Source of the DNA: a virus
Lineage: Duplodnaviria; Caudoviricetes
Length of the DNA stretch: 64,000 bases
Direction: 5' to 3' (one strand)
IMG/VR virus record: IMGVR_UViG_3300014208_000024
Span: 1 to 64,000 of that record
In this document: positions 34,662 through 34,807 of the stretch, piece after piece
Layout: every line of letters starts with the position of its first letter
Numbering within the stretch: position 1 is the stretch's first letter
Program-made: the position numbers and the translations under genes
Notes under the pieces: model-generated
Seen by the model: only the letters and a program-made list of their open reading frames with translations
What the model was told of the DNA's origin: nothing
The model's database searches: none

Positions 34662-34807
34662 TCCAGGGAAAATTTGCAAGGGTATAAATTACGTGCTCTA
34701 CCAACTGAGCTATCTCTCCAATTTTGTTTCTATTGCGGAGAGAGCAGGACTCGAACCTGCGACAACGGCATTAACAGTGCGAAGTAACCCTAACGATGGC
34801 CACTGGA
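34662..34807 (-). tRNA. Cassette C: circularly permuted tRNA-Asn(GTT)
   Basis: 3' half 34736-34780 precedes 5' half 34692-34719; join CG|GCA restores CGGCA/TGCCG; GGAGAGA/TCTCTCC acceptor; 16-nt linker. Confidence 0.88.

What the first reader, a model, noticed from the sequence alone, without database searches (positions are those of the whole stretch)
34662..34807. Clearest permuted tRNA: Asn(GTT)
The sense strand reads TACTTC^GCA-CTGTTAA-TGCCG...T-arm-TCTCTCC-G, then a 16-nt linker, then GGAGAGA-TA-GCTC...GAGC-A-CG. The only register giving a full anticodon stem is CG|GCA, which places the 5' junction exactly before the conserved G. It sits between two ordinary Asn tRNAs, so it is redundant with canonical copies.
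Basis: seen in the sequence. Interest (0 to 1): 0.85.

Follow-up and report, generated by a model that had tools for sequence, protein, structure and literature searches.

The report
Phage Y RNA carrying permuted tRNA-Asn
The back-to-front tRNA-Asn is real, but it sits inside a conserved RNA 'handle' that in these giant phages marks the partner RNAs of a Ro60 protein, so it is most likely a Y-RNA-type tRNA mimic and not a gene for a spliced tRNA.

Summary
On the minus strand, 34780-34736 is a tRNA 3' half, 34735-34720 is a 16-nt linker and 34719-34692 is the 5' half. Rejoined in silico, they give a perfect ARAGORN tRNA-Asn(GTT) with discriminator G73.

The flanks pair with each other: terminal stem with a bulged U, GUGGCNAN box, second stem, invariant UACUUC-G. 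This handle occurs at least 12 times in the 372-kb groundwater phage genome. It wraps permuted tRNAs (Asn, CAU, Gly, His-like), a non-permuted tRNA-like RNA, bare anticodon-like hairpins and a 243-nt non-tRNA cargo.

One copy lies about 60 nt upstream of the phage's TROVE/Ro60 gene. In 58 of 80 related phage Ro60 loci the handle motif lies within 1.2 kb upstream on the same strand (1 of 80 on the opposite strand). In relatives, the same Asn-loop design has a closed acceptor hairpin.

No splicing endonuclease gene was found and no BHB motif can form. RtcB, an Rnl2-like ligase and a CCA-adding enzyme are encoded.

Best reading (0.72): a YrlA-type Y RNA paralogue, new in keeping a complete anticodon arm and identity-consistent discriminator bases. 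Processing into a real tRNA is not excluded (about 0.12). No RNA data exist. This scan noted Ro60 partner RNAs before in other phages.

The parts
34812..34831 (-). Conserved upstream box GTTCTTTAAAATATTGAAAA, a candidate promoter of the cassette
   Evidence: Exact or near-exact copies precede cassettes at 24135, 33737, 34812 and 35134, and the GOLLD region at 42256. A sigma-70-like match, TTGATA-18-TAAAAT, overlaps it. Promoter function is inferred.
34800..34807 (-). Handle stem 1, 5' strand (UCCAG, bulged U, GG)
   Evidence: It pairs with 34662-34668. In the MFE fold. Covaries: 6 of 7 pairs change on both sides and 92% of cells are paired. Own versus swapped trailers score 5.66 versus 3.49 of 6.
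34796..34803 (-). Conserved box GUGGCCAU (family consensus R-U-R-G-Y-R-A), in the internal loop after stem 1
   Evidence: Present in all 35 curated cassettes as GTGG[CT]NA. 75 of 91 handles upstream of phage Ro60 genes carry the R-U-R-G-Y-R-A box, many as UAGCGA. It occupies the place of the CGAA bulge of known Y RNAs (PMC12135203, PMC4201824); that equivalence is inferred.
34787..34794 (-). Handle stem 2, 5' strand (GUUAGGGU)
   Evidence: It pairs with 34676-34683. Own versus swapped trailers score 6.23 versus 5.28 of 7. 7 of 8 pairs covary.
34780..34786 (-). Conserved UACUUC followed by the invariant G, which here doubles as tRNA position 29
   Evidence: G follows the motif in 35 of 35 cassettes. 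GTTACTT occurs within 600 nt upstream of 68 of 80 phage Ro60 genes, against 9 of 80 in downstream control regions.
34768..34780 (-). Mini anticodon hairpin GCA-CUGUUAA-UGC; anticodon GUU at 34775-34773
   Evidence: Hairpins with a 7-nt loop carrying U33 and R37 directly follow the handle in 12 of 32 cassettes, against 5.5% of shuffled cargoes.
34736..34767 (-). Rest of the tRNA 3' half: C42 G43, variable loop, T arm, acceptor 3' strand UCUCUCC, discriminator G73
   Evidence: ARAGORN cloverleaf of the rejoined sequence. T arm 98% paired and acceptor stem 95% paired, with 6 of 7 acceptor pairs covarying.
34720..34735 (-). 16-nt loop closing the acceptor stem (CAAUAGAAACAAAAUU)
   Evidence: It starts with CAA and ends with AUU, like the 3' trailers (N73-C-AAA in 24 of 46) and 5' leaders of this phage's ordinary tRNA genes.
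34692..34719 (-). tRNA 5' half: acceptor GGAGAGA, U8 A9, D arm, A26, C27 G28
   Evidence: D arm 93% paired. The 2-bp helix 27-28/42-43 is 94% paired and both pairs covary.
34669..34691 (-). Trailer: A/U-rich strand UAAUUUAU, stem 2 3' strand ACCCUUGC, loop AAAUUUU
34655..34668 (-). Handle stem 1, 3' strand (CCCUGGA) followed by a run of seven U: likely 3' end or terminator
   Evidence: A trailer CCC plus the complement of stem 1 is found in all curated cassettes.
34923..35131 (-). Sister cassette A: permuted His-like tRNA (G-1:C73, anticodon loop CUAUGAU), break in the D stem, about 70-nt acceptor loop
   Evidence: The orthologue in a related phage keeps the fold by compensatory changes but has a different loop, CUUGAUA.
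33605..33733 (-). Sister cassette C: the same handle around a non-permuted tRNA-like RNA, which ARAGORN calls tRNA-Stop(tta)
   Evidence: The anticodon loop is not conserved among orthologues.
47780..47928 (-). Sister cassette D: permuted tRNA with CAU anticodon, A73 and a 16-nt loop; 81% identical to B when rejoined
   Evidence: Rfam YrlA 36.7 bits.
47947..48096 (-). Sister cassette E: permuted tRNA-Gly(UCC), U73, 16-nt loop
   Evidence: The orthologue in the related phage G001 keeps the UCC hairpin and has compensatory acceptor and D-stem changes.
46442..46606 (-). Sister cassette with a permuted type-II-like tRNA body and a non-anticodon mini hairpin
48908..49057 (-). Sister cassette F: Tyr-type GUA hairpin, T arm, acceptor with encoded CCA, no D arm
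50438..50507 (-). Sister cassette whose only cargo is the mini hairpin GA-CUGCAAA-UC (Cys-type loop)
   Evidence: The orthologue in G001 has CUUCCAA, a Gly-type loop.
36917..37211 (-). Sister cassette with a 243-nt non-tRNA cargo
23993..24129 (-). Sister cassette with a non-permuted tRNA-like cargo plus an extra GAAA hairpin
10068..11324 (-). RtcB RNA ligase gene (context: RNA repair toolkit)
   Evidence: PF01139, 180 bits.
21794..22264 (-). Rnl2-family RNA ligase-like gene (context)
   Evidence: PF09414, 42.9 bits.

Best explanation
The 146-nt stretch is a small-RNA gene of the Y RNA type (YrlA-like). It is one of at least 12 paralogues in a 372-kb groundwater jumbo phage.

Shown by sequence, covariation and genomic association:
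- The 5' and 3' ends pair into a conserved two-stem handle with a bulged U, a GUGGCNAN box and an invariant UACUUC-G strand.
- This handle sits directly upstream of Ro60/TROVE genes in this phage and its relatives.
- Inside the handle lies a complete tRNA-Asn body in circularly permuted order. The acceptor stem is closed by a 16-nt loop. The anticodon stem is assembled from a 3-bp hairpin plus 2 bp, with the handle leaving as a side branch between positions 28 and 29.

Inferred:
- It is transcribed from the conserved box just upstream and ends at the U run.
- The phage Ro60 binds the handle.
- The tRNA-like body folds into an L shape and presents an Asn-type anticodon loop and G73 to a tRNA-recognising partner.
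- Because the acceptor stem has 7 bp and tRNA-like flanks, host RNase P and the phage CCA-adding enzyme may open the loop, as shown for M. smegmatis YrlA. This would give a nicked, handle-tethered tRNA look-alike.

I judge the likely role to be in Ro60/RtcB-linked RNA repair or surveillance, or as bait for enzymes that attack or modify tRNA-Asn-like anticodon loops. I do not think it supplies tRNA-Asn for translation.
For: - Handle multiplicity: 12 copies in the genome, with cargoes from 18 to 243 nt.
- Handle pairing covaries: there are 24 distinct stem-1 and 30 distinct stem-2 sequences. Own trailers score 5.66 of 6 and 6.23 of 7; swapped trailers score 3.49 and 5.28. The formal count on 11 tRNA-like members gave 0 of 500 shuffles as good.
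- Ro60 link in this genome: the TROVE gene lies at genome 83831-84688 (70 bits), with a handle copy about 60 nt upstream on the same strand.
- Ro60 link in other contigs: 4 of 5 other contigs carrying the handle encode TROVE, with handles just upstream.
- Reverse test: 58 of 80 phage Ro60 loci have the motif within 1.2 kb upstream on the same strand, against 1 of 80 on the opposite strand and 7 of 80 downstream. GTTACTT occurs upstream in 68 of 80 loci against 9 of 80 downstream.
- Rfam YrlA is the best non-tRNA match to B: 44.9 bits over the full model, E = 1.2e-8 in the 801-nt search. D scores 36.7 and E 30.8 bits.
- Relatives: Ro60-proximal RNAs in other phages have the same layout (mini hairpin, T arm, acceptor hairpin, D arm). 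One has a UUGUUAA Asn-type loop but a closed 6-bp acceptor hairpin.
- Paralogy: rejoined B is 81% identical to cassette D (CAU) but only 61-70% identical to the two canonical tRNA-Asn genes. It is therefore a paralogue within the handle family, not a rearranged tRNA-Asn gene.
- Literature: YrlA RNAs are described as resembling circularly permuted tRNAs, and M. smegmatis YrlA is cut by RNase P and CCA-added (PMC4201824; 10.1101/312249). A phage Ro60 binds upstream Y-like RNAs with a stem-bulge-stem (PMC12135203).
Against: - There is no RNA evidence at all. No RNA run holds the sequence, so the transcript ends, Ro60 binding and any processing are all unshown.
- The Rfam YrlA score is below the gathering threshold (44.9 against 69).
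- The published Ro60 motif GNCGAAN0-1G/CGAA is not literally present in B, which has GUGGCCAU and UUCGCA.
- The Ro60 gene of this genome has a 1-nt deletion near codon 23 relative to its closest relative. Its N-terminus may be altered.
- B lies about 50 kb from the Ro60 gene.
- B keeps a flawless cloverleaf, a 5-bp anticodon stem, a canonical Asn anticodon loop and G73. This is more than classical YrlA mimicry needs and leaves room for real tRNA-type function.
Confidence: 0.72

Rival explanations
1. It is a genuine permuted pre-tRNA. The handle is cut away at UUC|G and G28|U. The phage RtcB (or the Rnl2-like ligase) joins position 28 to 29, giving a circular intermediate. RNase P, a 3' nuclease and the CCA-adding enzyme then open the 16-nt loop and yield a functional tRNA-Asn.
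For: - The rejoined sequence is a perfect tRNA-Asn with G73. D, E and A also rejoin perfectly, with A73, U73 and G-1:C73 fitting their anticodons.
- The acceptor loop begins and ends like the flanks of ordinary tRNA genes in this phage.
- The loop is 16 nt in four cassettes.
- RtcB, an Rnl2-like ligase and a CCA-adding enzyme are encoded.
- Wang et al. raised this possibility for YrlA (10.1101/312249).
Against: - No splicing endonuclease gene was found, and the junction cannot form a bulge-helix-bulge motif (sequence inspection).
- The handle also wraps non-tRNA and incomplete cargoes.
- The break position varies between cassettes, and the invariant G is an extra base in a Tyr-type relative.
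- Relatives of the same design have closed or bulged acceptor stems and 4-bp anticodon stems with a bulge.
- Orthologous cassettes change their anticodon loop while keeping the rest (AUG against UGA; GCA against UCC).
- Every displayed anticodon has canonical tRNA copies.
Confidence: 0.12
2. The handle is a general RNA processing or circularising module and has nothing to do with Ro60. It could be a small self-cleaving motif or the recognition site of an unknown phage nuclease. It would release or circularise whatever cargo it flanks.
For: - The cargoes are very diverse and all sit in the same frame, UUC|G ... trailer.
- The G after UUC is invariant.
- RNA ligases are encoded.
Against: - There is a strong, strand-specific association with Ro60 genes.
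- No Rfam ribozyme or other family matches the handle, even at E up to 10.
- The stem-bulge-stem architecture with a conserved 5' strand is that of Y RNAs (PMC4201824, PMC12135203).
- The 3' strand opposite UACUUC is not conserved, which is unlike known small ribozyme cores.
Confidence: 0.08
3. It is a decaying by-product of rearrangement in a tandem tRNA array (the 3' part of one gene, a spacer and the 5' part of the next) with no function.
For: It lies in a dense tRNA array, between two tRNA-Asn genes and next to an HTH/HNH-type ORF.
Against: - The two halves have exactly matching acceptor strands.
- All helices covary across phages.
- The flanks are a conserved handle with its own promoter-like box and a U run.
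- B is closer to cassette D than to either tRNA-Asn.
Confidence: 0.03

Closest known systems
YrlA Y RNAs bound by bacterial Ro60/Rsr (Salmonella, M. smegmatis, mycobacteriophages; Rfam RF02553; Chen et al. 2014 PMC4201824; Wang et al. 2018, 10.1101/312249)
   Same: The 5' and 3' ends pair into a protein-binding stem with a conserved 5' strand. Inside lie a T arm, an acceptor-like hairpin and a D arm in circularly permuted order. The genes lie upstream of Ro60 on the same strand and are often linked to RtcB. M. smegmatis YrlA has a 7-bp acceptor stem, is cut by RNase P and receives CCA. B is the best non-tRNA Rfam match to YrlA.
   Different: Published YrlA 'lacks the anticodon loop', and its handle continues the anticodon stem. 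B keeps a full anticodon arm with a canonical Asn loop, and the handle leaves as a side branch at 28/29. The handle sequence differs: GUGGCNAN ... UACUUCG instead of GNCGAAN0-1G. The score is below Rfam's threshold. There are at least 12 paralogues per genome, scattered through tRNA operons, instead of one or two next to rsr.
Thermus phage phiLo Ro60 with Yrl1/Yrl2 (PMC12135203)
   Same: A phage-encoded Ro60 with two Y-like RNAs just upstream. The RNAs have a stem-bulge-stem with a conserved motif in the 5' strand, and binding was shown by EMSA and cryo-EM. Most of the 80 related phage loci here also carry two handles 270-430 nt upstream.
   Different: The phiLo Yrls are simple hairpin RNAs with a CGAA motif, and no tRNA-like domain is described. 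Here the cargo is a whole permuted tRNA, and the first box only sometimes contains CGA.
Circularly permuted tRNA genes of Cyanidioschyzon merolae, some green algae and Thermofilum pendens (Soma 2007; Maruyama 2010; Chan 2011, as cited in 10.1101/312249)
   Same: The gene order is 3' half, linker, 5' half. The leader and trailer pair next to the anticodon region. Rejoining gives a canonical cloverleaf.
   Different: Those precursors use a bulge-helix-bulge motif, the archaeal/eukaryal splicing endonuclease and a circular intermediate. Here there is no BHB and no endonuclease gene. The paired flanks are a conserved handle shared with non-tRNA cargoes and tied to Ro60.
Earlier notes of this scan: Ro60-like proteins with handle-sharing partner RNAs in Felix O1-type and other phages (e1-272486 and similar)
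   Same: A phage Ro60-like gene lies beside several small RNAs that share one handle. One of them carries a rearranged tRNA, inside tRNA clusters.
   Different: Those are in other genomes with a different handle wording (stem plus UACAGCAA). I did not compare them here. The present family has more copies and complete, identity-consistent permuted tRNAs.

Membership tests
YrlA / bacterial and phage Y RNA | Encoded next to, usually upstream of and on the same strand as, a Ro60/TROVE gene | tested here: met
   Met for the handle family. One copy lies about 60 nt upstream of the TROVE gene. 58 of 80 related Ro60 loci have the motif upstream on the same strand, against 1 of 80 on the opposite strand. 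Cassette B itself lies about 50 kb away and is linked only through the shared handle.
YrlA / bacterial and phage Y RNA | 5' and 3' ends form a stem with a bulge or internal loop | tested here: met
   MFE fold. Covariation of stems 1 and 2.
YrlA / bacterial and phage Y RNA | Conserved Ro60-binding motif GNCGAAN0-1G / CGAA in the 5' strand | tested here: inconclusive
   B has GUGGCCAU and UUCGCA at the equivalent places. Relatives often have UAGCGA(A/U)A or UUCGA. This is a resemblance, not identity.
YrlA / bacterial and phage Y RNA | tRNA-like domain: T arm, acceptor-like hairpin, D arm in that order | tested here: met
YrlA / bacterial and phage Y RNA | Reaches the Rfam RF02553 gathering score (69 bits) | tested here: not met
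   B scores 44.9 bits, D 36.7, E 30.8 and A 25.
YrlA / bacterial and phage Y RNA | Physically bound by Ro60 | not testable with these tools
   No RNA-protein prediction or binding data are available.
Permuted tRNA genes processed to mature tRNA (C. merolae type) | 3' half upstream of the 5' half, with acceptor ends joined by a linker; rejoining gives a cloverleaf | tested here: met
Permuted tRNA genes processed to mature tRNA (C. merolae type) | Leader and trailer form a bulge-helix-bulge motif at the junction | tested here: not met
   Sequence inspection. The first trailer bases, UAAUUUAU, cannot form the 4-bp central helix with GCAC at the start of the 3' half. The flanks instead form two long stems 7-8 nt away from the junction.
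Permuted tRNA genes processed to mature tRNA (C. merolae type) | tRNA splicing endonuclease available | tested here: not met
   PF01974 is absent from the phage genome, and the control rings only in archaea. The host is unknown but bacterial by context: a bacterial SRP RNA match and a GOLLD RNA.
Permuted tRNA genes processed to mature tRNA (C. merolae type) | Mature rejoined tRNA detected | not testable with these tools
   No RNA runs hold the sequence.
Ordinary tRNA gene (Rfam RF00005 / ARAGORN) | Contiguous cloverleaf in the DNA | tested here: not met
   ARAGORN finds nothing in the cassette as it stands. Rfam tRNA gives only partial hits of 17-19 bits.

The most novel reading that the evidence does not exclude
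The B, D and E cassettes are Y RNAs that are also complete, identity-bearing tRNAs. [quoted passage not shown] Alternatively, after removal of the handle and ligation by the phage RtcB, they could become working tRNAs. Either outcome would be the first permuted-tRNA maturation pathway in the bacterial/phage world. It would also be a direct functional bridge between Y RNAs and tRNAs.
Probability: 0.12. Interest if true: 0.9.

Novelty: new variant of a known kind. Interest (0 to 1): 0.58.

Why it matters
Y RNAs of the YrlA type are known tRNA mimics whose partners and purpose are still unclear. Published examples lack an anticodon loop.

This jumbo-phage family differs in three ways:
- It expands the Y RNA to a dozen paralogues per genome.
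- It places them inside tRNA operons.
- In several members it keeps an entire tRNA: a 7-bp acceptor stem, a discriminator matching the anticodon, and a canonical anticodon loop.

This gives concrete, synthesisable substrates to test three open questions. Can YrlA-like RNAs be processed towards real tRNAs, as Wang et al. 2018 suggested? What does the tRNA-like domain recruit? Do phages use Ro60, Y RNA and RtcB together to protect or repair specific tRNAs during infection?

It also warns annotators. tRNA finders here miss these RNAs or mis-call them: one is called a 'suppressor' tRNA, and another appears as a tRNA with a 'long intron'.

Tried and rejected
- Expression data: the run search found only two DNA metagenomes (groundwater) and no RNA run.
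- Laying their contigs on 33500-35200 mostly recovered tRNAs of other organisms. The same phage appeared only as identical short contigs, so there was no natural variation and no joints of value.
- A single-protein search for Ro60 relatives found only one contig. The alignment-based search was needed.
- A relaxed automatic search for trailers was noisy: 27% of swapped controls passed. I replaced it with a curated set.
- An Rfam scan at E up to 10 found no ribozyme or other family for the handle.
- The fold energy of B is not unusual (z = -1.24), so thermodynamics alone says nothing.
- No orthologue of cassette B was found at the syntenic place in the closest relative, which has an HNH-type ORF there. 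B's own conservation therefore could not be measured. Asn-loop cassettes in two more distant phages were used instead.
- The bulge-helix-bulge reading was rejected by inspection.
- The idea that cassette C is an ochre suppressor was rejected, because its orthologues have different or 8-nt loops.
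Full report
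**What is there.** The window is the first 64 kb of a single 372,283-bp virus record (28.7% G+C) from a groundwater metagenome. It carries 35 ARAGORN tRNA genes, all on the minus strand, a GOLLD RNA and an SRP-like RNA. A leader ends in UUACUUC. It is followed by GCA-CUGUUAA-UGC-CG, a 5-nt variable loop, a T arm, UCUCUCC and G. After a 16-nt linker come GGAGAGA-UA, a D arm and A-CG, and then a trailer. My coordinates are 3' half 34780-34736, linker 34735-34720 and 5' half 34719-34692. Joined in silico, the halves give a 73-nt sequence that ARAGORN calls tRNA-Asn(gtt) with a flawless cloverleaf. The cassette as it stands gives no call. Two ordinary tRNA-Asn genes flank it.

**The flanks are a conserved, paired handle.** The string GTTACTTCGCA occurs four times exactly in the window, each time on the minus strand. 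A pattern search of the whole genome, followed by inspection, gave 12 cassettes of one design:
- a 5-6 nt stem-1 strand;
- GUGG(C/U)NA in an internal loop;
- a 7-8 nt stem-2 strand;
- (G/A)UACUUC followed by an invariant G;
- the cargo;
- an A/U-rich strand, then the stem-2 complement;
- about 7 nt ending in UUUU/AAUU, then CCC and the stem-1 complement, often followed by a U run.

The U of GUGG is a one-base bulge between G-C pairs. Among 35 curated cassettes from this and related phages there are 24 different stem-1 and 30 different stem-2 sequences. Each leader pairs with its own trailer (5.66 of 6 and 6.23 of 7) but not with the trailers of others (3.49 and 5.28). Every stem-1 column shows several Watson-Crick pair types. 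On a MAFFT alignment of 11 tRNA-like members, I laid B's structure (handle plus cloverleaf) over the columns. In it, 86.9% of cells pair against 67.5% in shuffles, and 30 of 36 pairs change on both sides. No shuffle out of 500 and no slid register comes close. The minimum-free-energy fold of B alone shows stem 1 with the bulged U, stem 2, the T arm, the closed acceptor hairpin and the D arm.

**The cargoes are diverse.** Besides B there are these cassettes:
- D: permuted, CAU anticodon, A73.
- E: permuted, Gly UCC, U73.
- A: permuted, His-like with G-1:C73, break in the D stem, about 70-nt acceptor loop.
- A permuted type-II-like body at 46442-46606.
- F: GUA hairpin, T arm, acceptor stem with encoded CCA, no D arm.
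- C: a non-permuted tRNA-like RNA that ARAGORN calls tRNA-Stop.
- A tRNA-like RNA with an extra hairpin (23993-24129).
- Two cassettes whose only cargo is an anticodon-like stem-loop (50438-50507 and genome 338509-338587).
- A 243-nt non-tRNA cargo (36917-37211).
- A T-arm-only RNA next to the Ro60 gene.

The break point relative to the tRNA is therefore not fixed. The G after UUC belongs to the handle. It serves as G29 in B, D and E and as G24 in A, and it is an extra unpaired base in a Tyr-type relative.

**Link to Ro60.** The phage encodes a TROVE-domain protein at genome 83831-84688 (65-70 bits). A handle copy lies about 60 nt upstream on the same strand. This is the classic Y RNA arrangement described by Chen et al. 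2014 (PMC4201824).

A scan of IMG/VR for the handle motif found it in other large phage contigs. Of five such contigs, all fragments, four encode TROVE. They carry one to three handles directly upstream of that gene, and 20 handle copies in all, every one on a single strand, with zero hits for the reversed control pattern.

For the reverse test I started from an alignment of five phage Ro60 proteins and retrieved 80 loci. The motif [AT]TACTTCG lies within 1.2 kb upstream on the gene's strand in 58 of them. It lies on the opposite strand in 1, and in an equal stretch downstream in 7. The 7-mer GTTACTT is present upstream in 68 of 80 loci, against 9 of 80 downstream. Most loci have two handles 270-430 nt upstream, like the YrlA/YrlB or Yrl1/Yrl2 pairs. 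In 75 of 91 handles the first box fits R-U-R-G-Y-R-A, often UAGCGA. That places a CGA(A)-like element in the bulge between two stems, as in the Y-like RNAs shown to bind a Thermus phage Ro60 (PMC12135203).

Rfam agrees as far as it can. YrlA is the best non-tRNA match to B (44.9 bits, full model, E = 1.2e-8 in that search) and also matches D, E and A, always below the 69-bit threshold.

**Evidence against routine maturation into a tRNA.**
- No tRNA splicing endonuclease domain is encoded, and the junction cannot form a bulge-helix-bulge motif (inspection).
- Relatives with the same layout cannot be matured. One Ro60-proximal RNA in another phage has a GA-UUGUUAA-UC hairpin (an Asn-type loop), a T arm and a D arm, but a 6-bp acceptor hairpin closed by 5 nt. 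Another has a GCAA tetraloop.
- An Asn-type cassette in a third phage has a bulged acceptor stem and a 4-bp anticodon stem with a bulge.
- Orthologous cassettes keep their helices by compensatory changes but alter the loop: AUG against UGA in the A type, and GCA against UCC in the minimal type.
- Rejoined B is 81% identical to cassette D but only 61-70% identical to the two tRNA-Asn genes. It arose within the handle family.
- Every anticodon displayed has ordinary tRNA copies in the genome.

**What still points towards tRNA-like behaviour.**
- B, D and E have perfect 5-bp anticodon stems, canonical loops, 7-bp acceptor stems and discriminators that fit their anticodons (G73, A73, U73).
- Anticodon-like 7-nt loops with U33 and R37 directly after the handle are enriched: 12 of 32 against 5.5% of shuffles.
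- The acceptor loop starts with CAA and ends with AUU, like the flanks of this phage's tRNA genes, 24 of 46 of which are followed by C-AAA.
- Chen et al. showed that M. smegmatis YrlA, the one YrlA they tested that has a 7-bp acceptor stem, is cut by RNase P and receives CCA in vivo.
- The phage encodes a CCA-adding enzyme, RtcB and an Rnl2-like ligase. RNase P RNA is absent, so it would have to come from the host.

I therefore consider opening of the acceptor loop plausible (inference). Rejoining at 28/29 is possible but unsupported.

**Transcription.** A 20-nt box, GTTCTTTAAAATATTGAAAA, lies 4-9 nt before stem 1 of B, A, C and the 24-kb cassette, and before the GOLLD region. Similar boxes precede handles in the related phages. 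Other cassettes directly follow a tRNA 3' end and are probably co-transcribed. B ends in CCCUGGA followed by seven U. Independent transcription is inferred, not shown.

**Comparison and novelty.** Wang et al. [quoted passage not shown] Iyer et al. 2021 noted TROVE proteins with a tRNA-like partner in a few jumbo phages. I found no paper on permuted tRNAs in phages, nor on this handle. This scan has already recorded Ro60-like proteins with handle-sharing RNAs in Felix O1-type and other phages. The general theme is therefore not new here.

What is new:
- a distinct handle;
- at least 12 paralogues per genome, spread through tRNA operons;
- members that are whole, identity-consistent permuted tRNAs with the handle as a side branch of the anticodon stem.

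I class it as a new variant of a known kind.

**Limits.** No RNA data exist for this phage. Ro60 binding, transcript ends and processing are all untested. The Ro60 gene of this genome has a 1-nt deletion near codon 23 relative to its 81%-identical relative. The same deletion is seen in an independent assembly of what may be the same sample. The protein may start internally or be impaired.

Noticed in passing
window 33634-33706 (-): ARAGORN's 'tRNA-Stop(tta)' is the cargo of handle cassette C. It has an odd T loop (UUAAACU) and an encoded ACCA. Orthologues in three related phages have different loops (8-nt, UUC, GUC). It is probably not a real ochre suppressor.
   Followed up: partly
window 47856-48007 (-): The 152-nt Rfam tRNA hit (31.2 bits) is an artefact. 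It joins the 5' half of cassette E to the 3' half of cassette D, whose acceptor strands do not match.
   Followed up: yes
genome 84430-84520 (-), outside the window (L001 about 2440-2520): The Ro60/TROVE gene has a 1-nt deletion (GCTTAC to GCTAC) relative to the closest relative. This puts the first roughly 23 conserved codons (MSKF..NLAGGEA) out of frame with the 501-aa TROVE frame. The same deletion appears in a Logan contig from the probable source sample.
   Followed up: partly
window 41517-41900 (-) and 42256-42275 (-): A GOLLD RNA (226.6 bits) lies about 350 nt downstream of a copy of the same promoter-like box that precedes the Y-like cassettes. A bacterial small SRP RNA match (42.3 bits) lies just upstream, at 42370-42453.
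   Followed up: no
genome 74251-74324 and 75335-75409 (-), outside the window: Two tRNAs with anticodon CUA (ARAGORN calls them 'Pyl'). These are candidate amber suppressors and may bear on TAG reassignment in this phage.
   Followed up: no
window 34017-34586 (-): A 189-aa ORF directly after cassette B has an N-terminal HTH (HTH_38, GerE) and a weak HNH match. The related phage has an HNH-type ORF, and no B cassette, at the syntenic place. This may be a homing-endonuclease-like element within the tRNA array.
   Followed up: partly
genome-wide, e.g. window 34839-34913: 24 of 46 tRNA genes are followed by C-AAA after the discriminator, and 14 are preceded by AAT. This uniform flank pattern may be a processing signal. 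The acceptor loops of the permuted cassettes share it.
   Followed up: partly
window 50438-50507 (-) versus G001 (L054 2206-2228): Orthologous minimal cassettes differ only in the displayed loop, CUGCAAA (Cys-type) against CUUCCAA (Gly-type). Both keep C32 U33 and A37 A38, as if the anticodon triplet were swapped.
   Followed up: partly
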